This document shows, in pieces, positions 2,223 to 61,923 of a stretch of 64,000 nucleotides of DNA. Position numbers and translations under genes: made by a program. The stretch comes from Escherichia coli (GTDB lineage: Bacteria > Pseudomonadota > Gammaproteobacteria > Enterobacterales > Enterobacteriaceae): the NCBI RefSeq assembly GCF_017348835.2, contig NZ_CP071375.1; one strand, given 5' to 3'. Every line of letters starts with the position of its first letter. The stretch's first letter is position 1. The notes under the pieces are model-generated. The model did no database searches. It worked only from the letters and a program-made list of their open reading frames with translations, and was not told the origin of the DNA.

Positions 2223-2250
2223 GAAAAAAGGTGCCGTAGCACCTTTTTAA
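2223..2250. terminator. Bidirectional intrinsic terminator between convergent-end cyoE and divergent yajR (AAAAAGGTGC-CGTA-GCACCTTTTT)
   Basis: Perfect GC-containing hairpin flanked by A-run and T-run, just after cyoE stop. Confidence 0.7.
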
Positions 2251-3165: not shown

Positions 3166-6102
<2,937 letters not shown>

Positions 6103-19776: not shown

Positions 19777-19809
<33 letters not shown>

Positions 19810-19861
19810 TGACCTCTGTACTTATAACAGTTCTTATAACAACAAGTAAGGTTATTGCGCT

Positions 19862-20264: not shown

Positions 20265-20310
20265 TTTGTTGTGCCGGATGCTCATGCCGCATCCGGCAAC
20301 ATCCCGAGTA
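20265..20310. repeat. Single REP element between fadM and queC
   Basis: GCCGGATGCTCATGCCGCATCCGGCAAC palindromic REP-like motif. Confidence 0.65.
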
Positions 20311-31411: not shown

Positions 31412-31441
31412 GCGACATTAACCCTCTCCGCCCGGAGAGGG

Positions 31442-31831
31442 TTAGTAGTTCCAGCGATAACGCTGCAAGTCGATTTGCCCGCTTCCCGATACCATCACAC
31501 CTTCTGCCAGTAATGCCTGTCGCTGACGCTGTAAATCCGGTCCGGTTAGCGAAATTGTGCCGTGGCGATTAACCACCCGGTGCCAGGGTAAGGTGCTGCC
31601 TTCAGGGAGACGCTTTAACACACCGCCCACCTGGCGCGCGGCGCGGGGCGATCCCGCCAGTTTCGCCACATCACCGTAAGTGGTTACATAGCCTTCGGGA
31701 ATAGCGGCGACGATTTGCCAGACGCGTTGGGGAAATGAATCTTCTTTTTCCATCTTTTCTTCCTGAGGTAATTTTTCAGCATAATCTGGAAAAACGCCCG
31801 AGTGAAGTCGCATTGCGCAAGAAACCAGCAT
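31442..31831 (-). CDS. atl: Alkyltransferase-like DNA-damage recognition protein Atl (YbaZ), 129 aa
   Basis: ORF-track 31442..31852 minus; C-terminal sequence recognised; start chosen at second in-frame start to give 129 aa; alternatives at 31852 (TTG) and 31813 (ATG). Confidence 0.8.
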   Translation of the reverse strand: MLVSCAMRLHSGVFPDYAEKLPQEEKMEKEDSFPQRVWQIVAAIPEGYVTTYGDVAKLAGSPRAARQVGGVLKRLPEGSTLPWHRVVNRHGTISLTGPDLQRQRQALLAEGVMVSGSGQIDLQRYRWNY

Positions 31832-41168: not shown

Positions 41169-41192
41169 TACATACATTCACAAATGTATGTA
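41169..41192. promoter_or_regulatory. AcrR operator: 24-bp palindrome TACATACATT-CACA-AATGTATGTA in the acrR-acrA divergent promoter region
   Basis: 10-bp perfect inverted arms read in sequence 29 bp upstream of acrR ATG; matches the known AcrR operator. Confidence 0.85.
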
Positions 41193-50470: not shown

Positions 50471-50499
50471 GCAAACGAGAGCAGGATCACCTGCTCTCG

Positions 50500-52457: not shown

Positions 52458-52495
52458 AATGCCGGATGACCTTCGTGTCATCCGGCATTTTTCTT
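52458..52495 (+). terminator. htpG intrinsic terminator (ATGCCGGATGAC...GTCATCCGGCAT followed by T-run)
   Basis: Long inverted repeat immediately after stop, followed by TTTTTCTTTT. Confidence 0.75.
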
Positions 52496-55480: not shown

Positions 55481-56785
55481 ATGAAATTTCCCGGTAAACG
55501 TAAATCCAAACATTACTTCCCCGTAAATGCACGCGATCCGCTGCTTCAGCAATTCCAGCCAGAAAACGAAACCAGCGCCGCCTGGGTAGTGGGTATCGAT
55601 CAAACGCTGGTCGATATTGAAGCGAAAGTGGATGATGAATTCATTGAGCGTTATGGATTAAGCGCCGGGCATTCACTGGTGATTGAGGATGACGTAGCCG
55701 AAGCGCTTTATCAGGAACTAAAACAGAAAAACCTGATTACCCATCAGTTTGCGGGTGGCACCATTGGTAACACCATGCACAACTACTCGGTGCTCGCGGA
55801 CGACCGTTCGGTGCTGCTGGGCGTCATGTGCAGCAATATTGAAATTGGCAGCTATGCCTATCGTTACCTGTGTAACACCTCCAGCCGTACCGATCTTAAC
55901 TATCTACAAGGCGTGGATGGCCCGATTGGTCGTTGCTTTACGCTGATTGGCGAGTCCGGGGAACGTACCTTTGCTATCAGCCCTGGCCACATGAACCAGC
56001 TGCGGGCTGAAAGTATTCCGGAAGATGTGATTGCCGGAGCCTCGGCTCTGGTTCTCACCTCTTATCTGGTGCGTTGCAAGCCGGGTGAACCCATGCCGGA
56101 AGCAACCATGAAAGCCATTGAGTACGCGAAGAAATATAACGTACCGGTGGTGCTGACGCTGGGCACCAAGTTTGTCATTGCAGAGAATCCGCAGTGGTGG
56201 CAGCAATTCCTCAAAGACCACGTTTCTATCCTTGCGATGAACGAAGATGAAGCCGAAGCGTTGACCGGAGAAAGCGATCCATTGTTGGCATCTGACAAGG
56301 CGCTGGACTGGGTAGATCTGGTGCTGTGCACCGCCGGGCCAATCGGCTTGTATATGGCGGGCTTTACCGAAGACGAAGCGAAACGTAAAACCCAGCATCC
56401 GCTGCTGCCGGGCGCTATAGCGGAATTCAACCAGTATGAGTTTAGCCGCGCCATGCGCCACAAGGATTGCCAGAATCCGCTGCGTGTCTATTCGCACATT
56501 GCGCCGTACATGGGCGGGCCGGAAAAAATCATGAACACCAACGGAGCAGGGGATGGCGCACTGGCAGCGTTGCTGCATGACATTACCGCCAACAGCTACC
56601 ACCGTAGCAACGTACCAAACTCCAGCAAACATAAATTCACCTGGTTAACTTATTCATCGTTAGCGCAGGTGTGTAAATATGCTAACCGTGTGAGCTATCA
56701 GGTACTGAACCAGCATTCACCTCGTTTAACGCGCGGCTTGCCGGAGCGTGAAGACAGTCTGGAAGAGTCTTACTGGGATCGTTAA
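55481..56785 (+). CDS. gsk: Inosine-guanosine kinase Gsk, 434 aa
   Basis: ORF-track full length; MKFPGKRKSKHYFPVNARDPLLQQF; PfkB-type C-terminal motif. Confidence 0.95.
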   Translation: MKFPGKRKSKHYFPVNARDPLLQQFQPENETSAAWVVGIDQTLVDIEAKVDDEFIERYGLSAGHSLVIEDDVAEALYQELKQKNLITHQFAGGTIGNTMHNYSVLADDRSVLLGVMCSNIEIGSYAYRYLCNTSSRTDLNYLQGVDGPIGRCFTLIGESGERTFAISPGHMNQLRAESIPEDVIAGASALVLTSYLVRCKPGEPMPEATMKAIEYAKKYNVPVVLTLGTKFVIAENPQWWQQFLKDHVSILAMNEDEAEALTGESDPLLASDKALDWVDLVLCTAGPIGLYMAGFTEDEAKRKTQHPLLPGAIAEFNQYEFSRAMRHKDCQNPLRVYSHIAPYMGGPEKIMNTNGAGDGALAALLHDITANSYHRSNVPNSSKHKFTWLTYSSLAQVCKYANRVSYQVLNQHSPRLTRGLPEREDSLEESYWDR

Positions 56786-56918: not shown

Positions 56919-58595
56919 TTACCCCGTCACCACCTCACCCGCCGGTGGCGTTTCCAGCAGTTCCAGCATAGTACGGGCAATTTCACGCTCACCCATCACT
57001 ACCTGATTCGCGCCACGTTCGGTGATATACGCCACTTCATCGTCGTAATGGGCGCGGGCGATAATCTCAATATCCGGGTTTTTCGCGCGGGCAGACGCCA
57101 CAATCTCGCCTGCTTCATAACCGTTGGGAATCGTCAGGATCAGCCATTTTGCACATTCCAGATGCGCCAGTTGCATAATTTCTTCGTTCGCCGCATTGCC
57201 CAATACAGCGCGGACCCCACGCTCTCGCAGCTCATCAACACGGGTTCGTGACGTCTCAATCACCACCAGCGGAATATCAGAGGCGAGCAATTTCTCCCCC
57301 AGCAGGCTGCCTACACGACCGTAACCAACCAGTAGCGCATGGTTGCAAATATCCACTGGGATCTGCTTCTCTTCTTCGATTGCCTCTTCCAGCGTCTGCT
57401 CTTCCAGCGTTTCGGTCTTCGCCAGATATTTCTCCAGCAGCGCAAACAGGACCGGGTTGAGCATAATCGACAAAATCGCACCTGCCAGTACCAGGTTCTG
57501 CCCGGCTTGCGGCAACAGATCCAGCGCCATGCCCAGTCCCGCCAGGATAAACGCGAACTCACCAATTTGCGCCAGGCTGGCGGCGATAGTTAATGCCGTA
57601 CGTTGGGAGTGACCAAACAGTCGCACCAGGAAAAACGCGGCTAACGATTTACCAAACAGAATAATCGCCAGCGTCGCCAGCACTGCCAGCGGTTGCTGAA
57701 TCAGAATTAACGGATCAAACAACATCCCGACGGAGACAAAAAACAGCACCGCAAACGCGTCGCGCAATGGCAGCGTATCGTGGGCGGCACGGTGACTCAG
57801 TTCAGACTCGTTCAGTACCATCCCGGCAAAGAACGCACCGAGTGCAAAGGAGACATCAAACAGCTCCACCGCACCAAAGGCAATCCCTAACGCCAGCGCC
57901 AGCACCGACAGGGTAAACAGCTCGCGAGAACCGGTTGCCGCGCTGCGTGCCATAATCCACGGCACCAGACGGCGACCTACCAGCATCATAATGGCGATAA
58001 ACGCGATCACTTTGCCGATGGTGATCCCCATATCGACTGCAAGAGTGGCAAAGCCCACATCGCCCTGTTCCATCATTCCTGCCACTGCGGGCAGCAACAC
58101 CAGCGTCAGAACCATTACCAGGTCTTCCACAATCAACCAACCGATGGCGATTTGCCCACGTTGACTATCAATTAATTGCCGTTCTTCAAGTGCGCGCAGT
58201 AACACCACGGTACTGGCGGTGGAAAGACATAAGCCGAACACGATACCGGTCATTAACGACCAGCCCAGCACGGCAGAGAGCGCCATACCCAGCAGCGTCG
58301 CCACGGCTATCTGGGCGATCGCGCCGGGAATGGCGATGGCCTTTACCGCCATCAAATCCTTCAGCGAAAAGTGCAGACCCACGCCAAACATCAACAGAAT
58401 GACGCCCAGTTCAGCCAGTTCCGGCGCAAGCTTGGTATCGGCAACAAAGCCCGGAGTGAATGGTCCTGCCAGCACACCCGCTAACAGATATCCCACCAGA
58501 GGAGAAATACGTAGTTTATTGGCCAGCATGCCGAGGATAAAGGCGAGCACAAGGCCGCCAACAATGGTGGTGATAAGCGGGGTGGCGTGATGCAT
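56919..58595 (-). CDS. ybaL: CPA2-family monovalent cation:proton antiporter with C-terminal RCK/TrkA-N domain YbaL, 558 aa
   Basis: ORF-track full length; multi-TM N-terminus; Rossmann-like GYGRVG in C-terminal domain. Confidence 0.93.
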   Translation of the reverse strand: MHHATPLITTIVGGLVLAFILGMLANKLRISPLVGYLLAGVLAGPFTPGFVADTKLAPELAELGVILLMFGVGLHFSLKDLMAVKAIAIPGAIAQIAVATLLGMALSAVLGWSLMTGIVFGLCLSTASTVVLLRALEERQLIDSQRGQIAIGWLIVEDLVMVLTLVLLPAVAGMMEQGDVGFATLAVDMGITIGKVIAFIAIMMLVGRRLVPWIMARSAATGSRELFTLSVLALALGIAFGAVELFDVSFALGAFFAGMVLNESELSHRAAHDTLPLRDAFAVLFFVSVGMLFDPLILIQQPLAVLATLAIILFGKSLAAFFLVRLFGHSQRTALTIAASLAQIGEFAFILAGLGMALDLLPQAGQNLVLAGAILSIMLNPVLFALLEKYLAKTETLEEQTLEEAIEEEKQIPVDICNHALLVGYGRVGSLLGEKLLASDIPLVVIETSRTRVDELRERGVRAVLGNAANEEIMQLAHLECAKWLILTIPNGYEAGEIVASARAKNPDIEIIARAHYDDEVAYITERGANQVVMGEREIARTMLELLETPPAGEVVTG

Positions 58596-58800
58596 TCCGT
58601 CTCCTTTTCCTGGTGGTTATTGTCCATTTTTGGCCGGGAAAACCAAAATTACAGGTAATAGTTTATGACAATTTCATTGATGATGTTCATGAATAATTAT
58701 TGAATTTTGCAGAAAAATGGAATTAGCTGCAAAAAAAGCACGGATCGGAAAACAGAAGGCGGTTTAACAGAGGAAAGGCTTATGGCGACTGTAAAACGAT

Positions 58801-58825
58801 GCAGCCAAAGTTTGCCTTTGGCTGC
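58801..58825 (-). terminator. fsr terminator-like hairpin (perfect 10-bp stem GCAGCCAAAG-TTTGC-CTTTGGCTGC)
   Basis: Perfect inverted repeat immediately downstream of fsr stop; weak U-tract on minus strand. Confidence 0.5.
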
Positions 58826-58832
58826 AATGAAA

Positions 58833-60053
58833 TCAGTCTTTATGCCGGTTATCAGGCAGGAATATGGTCAACATCCCCAATAGTGGCAGGAAAGCACAGA
58901 TTTTATAGACTAACTCGATGCTGGTGTGATCGGCGATAAGCCCCAGAACTGCCGCTCCCAGACCTCCCATGCCGAAAGCAAAACCGAAAAAGAGTCCAGA
59001 AACCATACCGATACGTCCCGGAAGCAGCTCCTGAGCGTAGACCAGAATGGCAGAGAATGCCGAAGCGAGGATAAATCCAATAATCACCGTTAAAACCCCC
59101 GTCCAGTGCAGGCTGGCGTAGGGTAAAATCAGCGTAAACGGCGCAACGCCGAGGATAGAGCCCCAAATCACATATTTCCGCCCAATTTTATCCCCTACAG
59201 GCCCGCCGATCACCGTACCTGCCGCAACGGCAAACAGGAAGGCAAACAGATGAAGCTGAGCATTCTGGATAGATAATCCGAATTTTTGCATCAGATAAAA
59301 GGTGTAATAGCTGCTGATGCTCGCCATATAGAAATATTTCGAGAAAATGAGGATTAACAGAATGCTGACCGCCAGTACCACTTTGTTGCGCGGCAGTGGA
59401 TTGATAATCGTCGCTTTGGGTTTTCCTTTATTCATTCGGTGCTGTGCCGAGTACCAACGGCTGATTTGCGCCAACACCACGATCGCCAGCAGTGCCGCAA
59501 GCACAAACCAGGCAACGTTGCCTTTGCCATAAGGCGCGATAATCACCGCCGCCAGCAAGGGTCCCAGGGAACTGCCAAAGTTGCCGCCGACCTGAAAGAT
59601 AGATTGCGCCAGGCCATGCCGCCCGCCGGAAGCCATACGGGCTACGCGAGAAGATTCCGGATGAAAGACCGATGAACCGGTACCGACCAGCGCCGCCGCC
59701 AGCAGAACTGCGCCAAAACTGCCCGCCAGCGCAAGCAGCACCAGACCACTTAAGGTAAAGCACATGCCAATTGGCAACGACCACGGCATCGGATATTTAT
59801 CGGTCCAGTAGCCGACCACTGGTTGCAGTAGCGAAGAGGCGAGCTGGAAGGTGAGGGTTATCATGCCAATCTGCATAAATGTCAGAGAAAATTCTGACTG
59901 AAGCAGCGGATAAATCGCCAGAATCAGCGATTGGATCATGTCGTTCAGCAGATGTGAGAGGCTGATAGCACCTAAAATACCAAACGATGTTCGGGCCTTG
60001 GTCGTTGACGCAGCCGCGCCCGCCACAGGCTGGGTTTGTTCACTCATTGCCAT
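58833..60053 (-). CDS. fsr: Fosmidomycin resistance MFS transporter Fsr, 406 aa
   Basis: ORF-track full length; MAMSEQTQPVAGAAASTTKARTSFGILG. Confidence 0.94.
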   Translation of the reverse strand: MAMSEQTQPVAGAAASTTKARTSFGILGAISLSHLLNDMIQSLILAIYPLLQSEFSLTFMQIGMITLTFQLASSLLQPVVGYWTDKYPMPWSLPIGMCFTLSGLVLLALAGSFGAVLLAAALVGTGSSVFHPESSRVARMASGGRHGLAQSIFQVGGNFGSSLGPLLAAVIIAPYGKGNVAWFVLAALLAIVVLAQISRWYSAQHRMNKGKPKATIINPLPRNKVVLAVSILLILIFSKYFYMASISSYYTFYLMQKFGLSIQNAQLHLFAFLFAVAAGTVIGGPVGDKIGRKYVIWGSILGVAPFTLILPYASLHWTGVLTVIIGFILASAFSAILVYAQELLPGRIGMVSGLFFGFAFGMGGLGAAVLGLIADHTSIELVYKICAFLPLLGMLTIFLPDNRHKD

Positions 60054-60270: not shown

Positions 60271-61923
60271 ATGAAATTATTGCAGCGGGGCGTGGCGTTA
60301 GCACTGTTAACCACATTTACACTGGCGAGTGAAGCTGCTCTGGCGTATGAGCAGGATAAAACCTACAAAATTACAGTTCTGCATACCAATGATCATCATG
60401 GGCATTTTTGGCGCAATGAATATGGCGAATATGGTCTGGCGGCGCAAAAAACGCTGGTGGATGGTATCCGCAAAGAGGTTGCGGCTGAAGGCGGTAGCGT
60501 GCTGCTACTTTCCGGTGGCGACATTAACACTGGCGTGCCCGAGTCTGACTTACAGGATGCCGAACCTGATTTTCGCGGTATGAATCTGGTGGGCTATGAC
60601 GCGATGGCGATCGGTAATCATGAATTTGATAATCCGCTCACCGTATTACGCCAGCAGGAAAAGTGGGCCAAGTTCCCGTTGCTTTCCGCGAATATCTACC
60701 AGAAAAGTACCGGCGAGCGCCTGTTTAAACCATGGGCGCTATTTAAGCGTCAGGATCTGAAAATTGCCGTTATTGGCCTGACGACGGATGACACAGCGAA
60801 GTTAGGCAACCCAGAAAACTTCACCGATATTGAGTTCCGTAAGCCCGCTGATGAAGCGAAGCTAGTGATTCAGGAGCTGCAACAGACAGAAAAGCCAGAC
60901 ATTATTATCGCGGCGACCCATATGGGGCATTACGACAATGGTGAGCACGGCTCTAACGCACCGGGCGATGTGGAGATGGCGCGCGCGCTGCCTGCCGGAT
61001 CGCTGGCGATGATCGTCGGTGGTCACTCGCAAGATCCGGTCTGCATGGCGGCAGAAAACAAAAAACAGGTCGATTACGTGCCGGGTACGCCATGCAAACC
61101 GGATCAACAAAACGGCATCTGGATTGTGCAGGCGCATGAGTGGGGCAAATACGTGGGACGGGCTGATTTTGAGTTTCGTAATGGCGAAATGAAAATGGTT
61201 AACTATCAGCTGATTCCGGTGAACCTGAAGAAGAAAGTGACCTGGGAAGACGGGAAAAGCGAGCGCGTGCTGTACACCCCTGAAATCGCTGAAAACCAGC
61301 AAATGATCTCGCTGTTATCGCCGTTCCAGAACAAAGGCAAAGCGCAGCTGGAAGTGAAAATAGGCGAAACCAATGGTCGTCTGGAAGGCGATCGTGACAA
61401 AGTGCGTTTTGTACAGACCAATATGGGGCGGTTAATTCTGGCAGCACAAATGGATCGCACTGGTGCCGACTTTGCGGTGATGAGCGGAGGCGGAATTCGT
61501 GATTCTATCGAAGCAGGCGATATCAGCTATAAAAACGTGCTGAAAGTGCAGCCATTCGGCAATGTGGTGGTGTATGCCGACATGACCGGTAAAGAGGTGA
61601 TTGATTACCTGACCGCCGTCGCGCAGATGAAGCCAGATTCAGGTGCCTACCCGCAATTTGCCAACGTTAGCTTTGTGGCGAAAGACGGCAAACTGAACGA
61701 CCTTAAAATCAAAGGCGAACCGGTCGATCCAGCGAAAACTTACCGTATGGCGACATTAAACTTCAATGCCACCGGCGGTGATGGCTATCCGCGCCTTGAT
61801 AACAAACCGGGCTATGTGAATACCGGCTTTATTGATGCCGAAGTGCTGAAAGCGTATATCCAGAAAAGCTCGCCGCTGGATGTGAGTGTTTATGAACCGA
61901 AAGGTGAGGTGAGCTGGCAGTAA
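60271..61923 (+). CDS. ushA: Periplasmic UDP-sugar hydrolase / 5'-nucleotidase UshA, 550 aa
   Basis: ORF-track full length; signal peptide; metallophosphoesterase motifs (HTNDHHG, GGDINTG, GNHEFD). Confidence 0.96.
   Translation: MKLLQRGVALALLTTFTLASEAALAYEQDKTYKITVLHTNDHHGHFWRNEYGEYGLAAQKTLVDGIRKEVAAEGGSVLLLSGGDINTGVPESDLQDAEPDFRGMNLVGYDAMAIGNHEFDNPLTVLRQQEKWAKFPLLSANIYQKSTGERLFKPWALFKRQDLKIAVIGLTTDDTAKLGNPENFTDIEFRKPADEAKLVIQELQQTEKPDIIIAATHMGHYDNGEHGSNAPGDVEMARALPAGSLAMIVGGHSQDPVCMAAENKKQVDYVPGTPCKPDQQNGIWIVQAHEWGKYVGRADFEFRNGEMKMVNYQLIPVNLKKKVTWEDGKSERVLYTPEIAENQQMISLLSPFQNKGKAQLEVKIGETNGRLEGDRDKVRFVQTNMGRLILAAQMDRTGADFAVMSGGGIRDSIEAGDISYKNVLKVQPFGNVVVYADMTGKEVIDYLTAVAQMKPDSGAYPQFANVSFVAKDGKLNDLKIKGEPVDPAKTYRMATLNFNATGGDGYPRLDNKPGYVNTGFIDAEVLKAYIQKSSPLDVSVYEPKGEVSWQ

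What the first reader, a model, noticed from the sequence alone, without database searches (positions are those of the whole stretch)
58801..58825. Perfect 10-bp-stem hairpin immediately downstream of fsr
GCAGCCAAAG-TTTGC-CTTTGGCTGC begins 8 nt after the fsr stop. The U-tract is weak, so it may be a stabilising 3' structure or a protein-dependent terminator. The 237-bp ybaL-fsr spacer also contains a second 8-bp palindrome (TTTTGCAG...CTGCAAAA, about 58707-58738).
Basis: seen in the sequence. Interest (0 to 1): 0.12.

Follow-up and report, generated by a model that had tools for sequence, protein, structure and literature searches.

The report
Stem-loop ending the fsr mRNA
The hairpin is real and is the conserved RNA stem-loop that marks and protects the 3' end of the E. 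coli fsr (fosmidomycin-efflux) transcript, an ordinary kind of gene-end signal rather than anything new.

Summary
It starts 6-7 nt after the fsr stop and folds at -25.8 kcal/mol (z = -5.6). The window is E. coli: gsk, ybaL(-), fsr(-), ushA.

In 30 Enterobacteriaceae the same hairpin follows fsr. 11 of 13 pairs show changes on both sides, and the helix interior has seven G·U pairs and no A·C. It is therefore a selected RNA structure on the fsr-sense strand.

The U-tract is not conserved: 5 of 8 U in Escherichia, 1-2 of 8 in Enterobacter. In all 31 sequences compared (window plus 30 relatives), the 70-80 nt after the hairpin are C-rich, G-poor and YC-rich; in most they are also nearly unstructured, and in nearly all they end in a conserved T-run. 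This matches the published class of U-less protective stem-loops followed by a rut site (Rho-dependent termination plus exonuclease trimming). In Escherichia the hairpin may also act as a weak intrinsic terminator.

SMRT-Cappable-seq lists fsr and ybaL as separate single-gene transcripts. No published 3' end at the hairpin was found in the tables I could read.

The second palindrome is weak, near chance level, and specific to Escherichia. The finding is ordinary and of low interest.

The parts
58833..58835 (-). fsr stop codon (TGA)
   Evidence: ORF 58833-60053 (-), 406 aa. Annotated as fsr, fosmidomycin MFS transporter, in identical E. coli records.
58800..58826 (-). fsr 3' stem-loop. 5' arm 58826-58816 (UGCAGCCAAAG), loop 58815-58811 (GCAAA), 3' arm 58810-58800 (CUUUGGCUGCA).
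   Evidence: Sequence. Fold -25.8 kcal/mol, z = -5.6. Top terminator-like site in the consensus scan. Helix supported by covariation in 30 species: 85% of cells paired, 11 of 13 pairs changed on both sides, 0 of 500 shuffles as good. RNAalifold predicts the same helix independently. Interior wobbles are all G·U on this strand. One copy per E. coli genome; the 65-nt region is identical in 5117 of 5419 genomes.
58790..58799 (-). Tail UCGUUUUACA: an imperfect U-tract and the expected position of the steady-state 3' end
   Evidence: 5 of the first 8 are U, 1 of the first 3. Not conserved: UCGUAUUGCA in a divergent E. coli, ACACCCUGAU or CCCCCCUGAU in the Lelliottia/Enterobacter group.
58738..58799 (-). 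C-rich, G-poor, unstructured spacer: a candidate Rho-utilisation (rut) region
   Evidence: The 80 nt after the hairpin are C 30% and G 15% in the window; the mean over 31 sequences (window plus 30 relatives) is C 31% and G 14.5%. Only 3.9% of 80-nt windows in the 64 kb are as C-over-G skewed. The 45 nt before the T-run fold at about 0 to -4 kcal/mol in most species. YC dinucleotides number 13 here, with a mean of 14.5 across species, against a background of 8.0 +/- 2.9.
58731..58737 (-). T7 run (U7 in the read-through RNA), about 63-69 nt after the hairpin: a candidate pause or release point
   Evidence: A T-run is present at this aligned position in nearly all 31 sequences. In Cedecea, Enterobacter sp. 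R1 and Bisph1 it is preceded by its own hairpin, which gives a canonical terminator there. A role in E. coli is inferred, not shown.
58705..58734 (-). Second palindrome UUUUGCAG-N14-CUGCAAAA: a weak hairpin, probably incidental
   Evidence: -8.3 kcal/mol, z = -2.7. Chance probability about 0.16. Present only in Escherichia; absent in Citrobacter, Enterobacter and the others.
58652..58689 (-). ybaL promoter, the unit that the fsr 3' element insulates: -35 TGAACA 58689-58684, -10 TAAACT 58665-58660, TSS 58652
   Evidence: SMRT-Cappable-seq TSS for b0478 is at MG1655 503295 (PMC6131387 Suppl. Data 2), which is window 58652 using offset 444643. The two hexamers fall in the two most conserved blocks of the spacer. 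The hexamer assignment is my inference.

Best explanation
The palindrome works as RNA on the fsr-sense (-) strand. It is the 3'-terminal stem-loop of the monocistronic fsr mRNA.

Proposed mechanism:
1. The ribosome releases at the fsr stop, 6-7 nt upstream, and the hairpin forms.
2. The C-rich, G-poor, unstructured 60-70 nt that follow are left untranslated and serve as a Rho loading (rut) site.
3. Rho terminates transcription before or around the conserved T-run, upstream of the ybaL promoter.
4. 3'-to-5' exonucleases (PNPase, RNase II) trim the tail back to the base of the hairpin, which then defines and protects the steady-state 3' end.
5. In Escherichia the tail UCGUUUUA probably lets some polymerases terminate at the hairpin without Rho, making a mixed or transitional terminator.

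What is shown: the hairpin exists, selection maintains its pairing, the functional strand is the fsr-sense strand, there is no conserved U-tract, the flank has a conserved rut-like composition, and published full-length reads give separate fsr and ybaL transcripts.

What is inferred: Rho dependence, exonuclease trimming, the position of the 3' end, and any role of the T-run.
For: Structure and stability.

Selection for pairing: in 30 Enterobacteriaceae, 85.4% of cells are paired against 23-47% when partners are slid. 11 of 13 pairs change on both sides, and 0 of 500 shuffles reach the observed values. RNAalifold finds the same helix independently.

Strand: interior pairs (columns 11-18) contain 7 G·U/U·G and 0 A·C/C·A, arising in several separate lineages. 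These would be mismatches in the antisense RNA.

Not a classical terminator in most genera: the tail has 1-3 U in 8 in most genera.

Rut-like flank, conserved in composition but not in sequence: C 31% and G 14.5%, near-zero folding energy, 14.5 YC per 70 nt against a background of 8.0 +/- 2.9.

Published paradigm: Rho-dependent E. coli transcripts end just after stable stem-loops without U-rich tails, followed by C-over-G enrichment. They are trimmed by PNPase and RNase II, and terminators may switch type by changing uridine content (PMC6061677).

Transcript architecture: SMRT-Cappable-seq lists b0479 alone from TSSs 504749 and 504754, and b0478 alone from TSS 503295. fsr does not appear among the extended operons (PMC6131387).

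Synteny: fsr, then 217-255 bp, then ybaL, in all 30 relatives.
Against: No 3' end has been mapped at the hairpin. The uncut Term-seq tables of PMC7815308 have no fsr entry and no coordinate in 5031xx-5036xx, and its Rho-region table has none there either. SMRT-Cappable-seq defined no TTS for fsr. Low fsr expression is the likely reason, but that is an assumption.

In E. coli the tail has 5 U in 8, and the consensus scan ranks the site as terminator-like. Purely intrinsic termination is therefore not excluded.

C-richness of the flank could reflect other constraints.

The ybaL promoter lies only about 110-150 nt downstream of the hairpin, so Rho would have to act over a short distance.

The near-invariant apical CCAAAG/CUUUGG and the fixed 5-nt spacing go beyond what a simple exonuclease block requires.
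Confidence: 0.55

Rival explanations
1. In E. coli the hairpin plus UCGUUUUA is a self-sufficient intrinsic (Rho-independent) terminator of fsr. The hairpin forms in the RNA exit channel while the U-rich hybrid is in the active site and releases the transcript 7-9 nt after the stem, with no need for Rho.
For: An 11-bp stem with 6 G-C pairs, a 5-nt loop, and 5 U in the 8 nt after the stem. It is the strongest terminator-like site in the 4-kb scan. It folds at -25.8 kcal/mol and lies immediately after the stop codon on the sense strand. fsr and ybaL are recorded as separate transcripts. One E. coli variant has G to A in the tail (UCAUUUUA), which weakens the hybrid further.
Against: Only 1 of the first 3 tail positions is U, and C and G occupy positions 2-3. 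From general knowledge of terminators, not tested here, the stem-proximal U residues matter most. The tail is degraded in a divergent E. coli lineage (UCGUAUUG). It is absent in most genera that keep the hairpin (1-2 U in 8 in Enterobacter, Lelliottia, Pseudocitrobacter), so the conserved function of the hairpin cannot be classical intrinsic termination. There is no A-tract upstream.
Confidence: 0.3
2. fsr and ybaL are co-transcribed to a meaningful extent, and the hairpin is an intercistronic stabiliser or processing barrier. It protects the upstream fsr segment after cleavage and sets different levels for the two genes, as REP hairpins do in some operons.
For: The genes share an orientation, and the fsr-ybaL synteny with a 217-255 bp spacer is strictly conserved. 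The hairpin would block 3' exonucleases in this scenario as well.
Against: SMRT-Cappable-seq found no read covering both genes. fsr is 'same' as the single-gene RegulonDB operon and is absent from the extended-operon list. ybaL has its own TSS at 503295 within a strongly conserved promoter block.
Confidence: 0.06
3. The palindrome is a double-stranded DNA operator, GCCAAAG-N5-CTTTGGC, bound by a dimeric transcription factor that regulates ybaL or fsr.
For: The apical 6-7 bp and the 5-bp spacing are almost invariant in 30 species. The motif is unique in the window.
Against: The outer stem positions change freely but stay complementary, with 4 to 12 double changes per pair. This is selection for pairing, not for sequence. 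G·U but never A·C occurs inside the helix, which has no meaning for duplex DNA. The site lies about 150-175 bp upstream of the ybaL TSS and about 1.3 kb downstream of the fsr TSSs. I could match no known factor motif; a PurR-box resemblance recalled from memory fails on central spacing, and the loop is not conserved.
Confidence: 0.04
4. The element functions on the + strand, as part of a 33-codon ORF (58782-58883, preceded by GAGGA) or of an antisense RNA to the fsr 3' end.
For: A good Shine-Dalgarno sequence with 7-nt spacing to an ATG, and an open frame through the hairpin. The SD-ATG block is conserved in Escherichia, Citrobacter and part of Enterobacter.
Against: The ORF is not conserved: 10 aa in E. 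albertii, 10-41 aa elsewhere, a different frame through the hairpin, and the ATG lost in many species. G·U pairs favour the - strand. It is not annotated in MG1655, and no + strand TSS or 3' end is listed here.
Confidence: 0.02

Closest known systems
[quoted passage not shown]
   Same: A stable stem-loop just after the gene, energetically like a terminator hairpin. It has no conserved U-tract, it is followed by C-over-G enrichment and an unstructured stretch (candidate rut), and the gene is weakly expressed. The authors also describe intermediate cases with reduced uridine content, which fits the Escherichia tail.
   Different: Rho dependence, exonuclease trimming and the exact 3' end have not been measured for fsr. 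The E. coli tail is more U-rich than typical for that class. The apical stem sequence is unusually conserved.
Canonical intrinsic (Rho-independent) terminators
   Same: A G+C-rich 11-bp stem, a 5-nt loop, a position a few nt after the stop codon on the sense strand, and a tail with a UUUU run.
   Different: The tail begins UCG and has 5 U in 8 rather than a contiguous proximal U-tract. The tail is not conserved, while the hairpin is. No upstream A-tract.
REP/BIME extragenic palindromes acting as mRNA 3' stabilisers
   Same: An extragenic hairpin downstream of a gene that could stop 3' exonucleases.
   Different: It is single-copy (1 place per genome) and has no REP consensus. The window's REP-like hairpins (for example 20272-20298 and 52458-52489) look quite different.

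Membership tests
Intrinsic (Rho-independent) terminator | Stable G+C-rich stem-loop (about 5-14 bp stem, 3-8 nt loop) on the sense strand downstream of a gene | tested here: met
   11 bp, 6 G-C pairs, 5-nt loop, 6 nt after the fsr stop. -25.8 kcal/mol, z = -5.6.
Intrinsic (Rho-independent) terminator | A 7-8 nt U-tract immediately 3' of the stem, U-rich from the first positions | tested here: inconclusive
   In E. coli UCGUUUUA has 5 U in 8 but 1 in the first 3. This passes a lenient scan. Across 30 relatives that keep the hairpin, most have 1-3 U in 8, so the feature is not met as a conserved property.
Intrinsic (Rho-independent) terminator | Factor-independent transcript release in vitro at a fixed position after the stem | not testable with these tools
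   Needs single-round in vitro transcription.
Rho-dependent terminator with protective 3' stem-loop | Stable stem-loop not followed by a U-rich tract | tested here: met
   Met in most genera. Escherichia is intermediate at 4-5 U in 8.
Rho-dependent terminator with protective 3' stem-loop | C-rich, G-poor, poorly structured RNA downstream (rut-like) | tested here: met
   C 31% and G 14.5% in all 31 sequences. Folding energy about 0 to -4 kcal/mol per 45 nt in most. YC count 14.5 against 8.0 +/- 2.9.
Rho-dependent terminator with protective 3' stem-loop | Bicyclomycin-sensitive read-through at the site | tested here: inconclusive
   The Rho-region table of PMC7815308 has no entry in 5031xx-5036xx. 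fsr may be too weakly expressed to score. The supplements of PMC6061677 are not held.
Rho-dependent terminator with protective 3' stem-loop | Steady-state 3' end at the base of the stem-loop, with longer tails in pnp/rnb mutants | not testable with these tools
   No fsr 3' end appears in the held Term-seq or SMRT-Cappable tables.
REP/BIME repeat | Many copies per genome sharing a consensus | tested here: not met
   One place per genome in 5419-5422 E. coli genomes. The motif is unique in the window.
Any curated Rfam RNA family | Covariance-model match | tested here: not met
   cmscan of 58400-59000 at E <= 10 gave only a chance snoRNA match (E = 5.8) inside ybaL.
Hfq-dependent 3'UTR-derived sRNA | Hfq-associated RNA-RNA interactions, and a terminator with a long U-tail | tested here: not met
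   No fsr node appears in the RIL-seq-derived tables of PMC8175672. There is no long U-tail. The absence may reflect low expression.

The most novel reading that the evidence does not exclude
The apical half of the stem (CCAAAG/CUUUGG) and the 5-nt distance between its arms are almost invariant across about 30 genus-level lineages, while the basal half covaries freely. The most novel reading not excluded is that the hairpin is a sequence-specific recognition element for an unidentified trans-acting factor, such as an RNA-binding protein, a ribonuclease or an sRNA. Such a factor would control fsr mRNA fate or read-through into ybaL, so the hairpin would be more than a generic exonuclease barrier.
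Probability: 0.07. Interest if true: 0.4.

Novelty: new member of a known kind. Interest (0 to 1): 0.1.

Why it matters
It matters little beyond annotation. The result gives fsr a defined 3' boundary and explains why fsr and ybaL behave as separate transcription units despite their conserved tandem arrangement.

It is also a clean comparative illustration of a published idea. A terminator-type hairpin can be kept for tens of millions of years while the U-tract comes and goes, so lineages appear to drift between Rho-dependent, mixed and intrinsic termination. Canonical U-tract hairpins follow fsr in Shimwellia, Pantoea and Erwinia, and U-less ones in Enterobacter and Citrobacter.

For engineering fsr, for example in isoprenoid or anthocyanin export work, the hairpin and about 70 nt downstream should be kept together as the functional 3' end.

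Tried and rejected
**Rfam.** A scan of the spacer found no family.

**Direct 3'-end evidence.**
- Adams 2021 Term-seq and Rho tables (uncut): no fsr entry and no coordinates 5031xx-5036xx.
- Dar & Sorek 2018, Conway 2014, Grünberger 2022 and BacTermFinder: no supplements held.
- Ju 2019 SEnd-seq and Peters 2012: papers not held.
- SMRT-Cappable-seq: gave TSSs and operon calls but no fsr TTS.

**Literature searches.** Searches on fsr, ybaL and terminator returned unrelated 'fsr' usages. The one relevant paper (PMC10634445) only notes structural variation of the locus in Salmonella.

**RIL-seq.** The derived tables contain no fsr node.

**Antisense 33-aa ORF with a strong SD.** Rejected, because its length, frame and start codon are not conserved.

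**REP or repeat-family membership.** Rejected, because the element is single-copy.

**Second palindrome as a functional partner.** Rejected as near chance, weak and Escherichia-only.

**T-run as the U-tract of a second intrinsic terminator in E. coli.** Rejected, because no hairpin precedes it there, although one does in Cedecea, Enterobacter sp. R1 and Bisph1.

**PurR-box-like reading of CAAAGTTTG.** Recalled from memory and not tool-tested. Rejected because the central spacing is one base short and the loop is not conserved.

Full report
**1. What is there**

The window is E. coli chromosome. It carries gsk (+, 55481-56785), ybaL (-, 56919-58595), fsr (-, 58833-60053) and ushA (+, 60271-61923). 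The 237-bp ybaL-fsr spacer is identical to that of MG1655, although the flanking genes differ from MG1655 at 51 positions. In this spacer the MG1655 coordinate equals the window coordinate plus 444643.

The reported palindrome is exact. With T58800:A58826 it forms an 11-bp perfect stem with a 5-nt loop, beginning 6 nt after the fsr stop. As fsr-sense RNA it folds at -25.8 kcal/mol (z = -5.6). The consensus scan lists it as the strongest terminator-like site in the surrounding 4 kb, with tail UCGUUUUACA.

Perfect hairpins of this size are far more frequent in the window than chance allows: 8 against 0.17 expected. The probability of one in a spacer of this composition is about 0.005. The only corrections are the extra base pair and the coordinates of the second palindrome, which lies at 58705-58712 / 58727-58734.

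**2. Comparative anatomy**

I fetched 80 fsr loci from one-genome-per-species collections. In 30 Enterobacteriaceae, fsr is followed after 217-255 bp by ybaL. These include Escherichia, Citrobacter, Enterobacter, Lelliottia, Kluyvera, Pseudocitrobacter, Cedecea, Pluralibacter and Pseudescherichia. The same hairpin sits at the same distance from the stop codon in each.

On the alignment of these sequences, a 13-pair helix is 85.4% paired, against 23-47% when the 3' partners are slid by 1-3 columns. 11 of 13 pairs show changes on both sides, and no shuffle out of 500 reaches the observed pairing or covariation. RNAalifold recovers the same helix unaided.

Inside the helix (columns 11-18) there are seven G·U or U·G pairs and no A·C or C·A. 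The wobbles occur in separate lineages: E. albertii, C. youngae, Kluyvera, RIT691, Cedecea sulfonylureivorans and Bisph1. They would be mismatches in the antisense RNA and are meaningless in duplex DNA. The selected object is therefore an RNA hairpin in the fsr transcript.

Within E. coli the 65-nt region is identical in 5117 of 5419 complete genomes and occurs once per genome. The sampled variants alter the loop or the tail, not the pairing.

**3. What is not conserved, and what is**

The U-rich tail is confined to Escherichia and two or three other lineages. Enterobacter, Lelliottia, Pseudocitrobacter and several others have 1-2 U in the first 8 nt. A divergent E. coli lineage has UCGUAUUG. 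A hairpin kept this carefully without its U-tract cannot owe its conservation to classical intrinsic termination.

By contrast, the composition of the next 70-80 nt is conserved although the sequence is not:
- mean C 31% and G 14.5% in all 31 sequences, with only 3.9% of 80-nt windows in the 64 kb as skewed;
- folding energy about 0 to -4 kcal/mol for the 45 nt preceding a conserved T-run in most species;
- 14.5 YC dinucleotides per 70 nt against a background of 8.0 +/- 2.9.

These are the accepted hallmarks of a Rho loading site.

A T-run 63-69 nt after the hairpin (window 58731-58737) is present in nearly all species. In Cedecea, Enterobacter sp. R1 and Bisph1 it is preceded by its own small hairpin, which makes a canonical terminator there. 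In E. coli nothing folds in front of it.

More distant Enterobacterales have unrelated hairpins after fsr. Some have textbook U-tracts (Shimwellia, Pantoea, Erwinia) and some have none (Rahnella, Photorhabdus). This shows turnover of hairpin and tail.

**4. Experimental record**

SMRT-Cappable-seq (PMC6131387) sequences full-length 5'-triphosphate transcripts. It lists b0479 (fsr) alone from TSSs 504749 and 504754, and b0478 (ybaL) alone from TSS 503295. fsr is not among the operons extended by even a single read, but no fsr TTS reached that study's threshold. fsr transcripts therefore cover fsr but never the whole of ybaL, and ybaL has its own promoter.

That TSS corresponds to window 58652. 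It lies 7 nt downstream of a conserved TAAACT, with a conserved TGAACA/TAAACA 18 nt further upstream. These two hexamers fall in the two most conserved blocks of the spacer.

Term-seq and bicyclomycin tables from PMC7815308 are held uncut. They contain no fsr entry and nothing between 503100 and 503699. I attribute this to weak expression, but it means that the 3' end and Rho dependence remain unmeasured. Other candidate data sets were not available.

**5. Mechanism**

The pattern matches the class described by Dar & Sorek (PMC6061677). In that class, Rho-dependent E. coli transcripts end immediately after stable stem-loops. The stem-loops are energetically like terminator hairpins but lack U-rich tails, and they are followed by C-over-G enrichment where rut sites were localised. 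Termination occurs downstream, and PNPase and RNase II trim back to the hairpin. The authors also predicted evolutionary switching between terminator types through changes in uridine content, with mixed cases as transition states.

I therefore propose that the fsr hairpin is the protective and defining 3' stem-loop of a mainly Rho-dependent terminator, whose rut is the C-rich spacer (window about 58738-58799). The T-run would be a plausible pause or release point. In Escherichia there may be some additional hairpin-driven termination at UCGUUUUA.

Confidence that this is an fsr-sense 3'-end RNA stem-loop (terminator or stabiliser) is high, about 0.85. Confidence in the mainly-Rho version is about 0.55, and in a self-sufficient intrinsic terminator in E. 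coli about 0.3.

The proximity of the stem to the stop codon means that a terminating ribosome must leave before the hairpin can form. This comes from general knowledge of ribosome footprints and was not tested here.

**6. Rivals**

- **Intercistronic stabiliser in an fsr-ybaL operon.** Disfavoured by the long-read data.
- **DNA operator.** Contradicted by the free but complementary variation of the outer stem and by the G·U asymmetry.
- **+ strand function.** A 33-codon ORF at 58782-58883 has a good Shine-Dalgarno sequence, but its length, frame and start codon are not conserved.
- **Known families.** There is no Rfam match. The element is not a REP-type repeat. fsr does not appear in RIL-seq-derived tables.

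**7. Residual oddity**

The apical six pairs (CCAAAG/CUUUGG) and the 5-nt distance between the arms hardly vary: 0-2 double changes per pair. The basal pairs show 4-12. A plain exonuclease barrier does not require this. I give a small probability, about 0.07, to recognition by a specific factor.

**8. The second palindrome**

It forms a weak hairpin of -8.3 kcal/mol and has a probability of about 0.16 of arising by chance in such a spacer. It exists only in Escherichia and lies at about -53 to -82 relative to the ybaL TSS. I treat it as incidental.

**9. Verdict**

The feature is real and is an ordinary example of a known kind of 3'-end element. Interest is low.

Noticed in passing
window 58640-58705 (- strand): This is the most conserved part of the ybaL-fsr spacer, more so than the hairpin: AAAATTCAAyAATTATTCATAAACAT..N10..AAATTGTCATAAACTATTAC, with TCATAAAC occurring twice about 29 bp apart. 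The published ybaL TSS (MG1655 503295 = window 58652) fits a -10 TAAACT (58665-58660) and a -35 TGAACA (58689-58684). The conserved AT-rich block upstream of the -35 (about 58690-58708) could be an UP element or an activator site.
   Followed up: partly
window 58738-58752 (- strand: TTTTCCGATCCGTGC, directly 5' of the T-run): This 15-nt motif is conserved almost unchanged in Escherichia, Citrobacter, RIT691, Pluralibacter UBA7423, Superficieibacter and BIGb0383. The surrounding 3' flank has diverged completely. The Enterobacter group has a different conserved block (AATTTATCAAAATGCGC) at the same place. Its function is unknown.
   Followed up: no
window 58770-58784 and + strand ORF 58782-58883: On the + strand, GAGGAAAGGCTTATG (a Shine-Dalgarno sequence plus ATG) opens a 33-codon ORF, MATVKRCSQSLPLAAMKSVFMPVIRQEYGQHPQ. 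It is antisense to the fsr 3' end and runs through the hairpin. The SD-ATG block is conserved in Escherichia, Citrobacter and part of Enterobacter, but the ORF's length, frame and start codon are not. It is probably not a gene.
   Followed up: yes
loci L032 (Shimwellia), L044 (Pantoea), L053 (Erwinia), L036/L041 (Rahnella), L037-L039 (Photorhabdus); the 70 nt after the fsr stop: Outside the core Enterobacteriaceae, fsr is followed by unrelated hairpins. Some have textbook U-tracts (GGGGUUUUCUCUUUCU in Shimwellia, CCCCGUUUUACAU in Pantoea). Others have none. This shows evolutionary turnover of both the hairpin and the terminator type at one gene end.
   Followed up: partly
window 2225-2248, 19793-19817, 20272-20298, 31419-31444, 41169-41192, 50476-50499, 52458-52489: Seven other perfect hairpins of at least 10 bp lie in the window. 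2225-2248 has an A5/T5-flanked stem, like a bidirectional terminator. 20272-20298 and 52458-52489 carry the GCCGGATG...CATCCGGC core typical of REP elements, and the latter is followed by TTTCTTTT.
   Followed up: no
about window 56888 (+ strand), between the gsk stop (56785) and the ybaL 3' end: The Rho-termination table of PMC7815308 lists a bicyclomycin-sensitive region at MG1655 501531 (+), annotated as antisense to ybaL. gsk transcription therefore appears to be stopped by Rho after running into the convergent ybaL 3' end. The coordinate conversion is approximate, because the window differs from MG1655 by an indel in this area.
   Followed up: no
window 60106 and 60111 (- strand): The published fsr TSSs (MG1655 504749 and 504754, SMRT-Cappable-seq) fall 53-58 nt upstream of the fsr ATG, in the 217-bp divergent fsr-ushA spacer. 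The ushA TSS, at MG1655 504882, lies 32 nt upstream of the ushA ATG.
   Followed up: no
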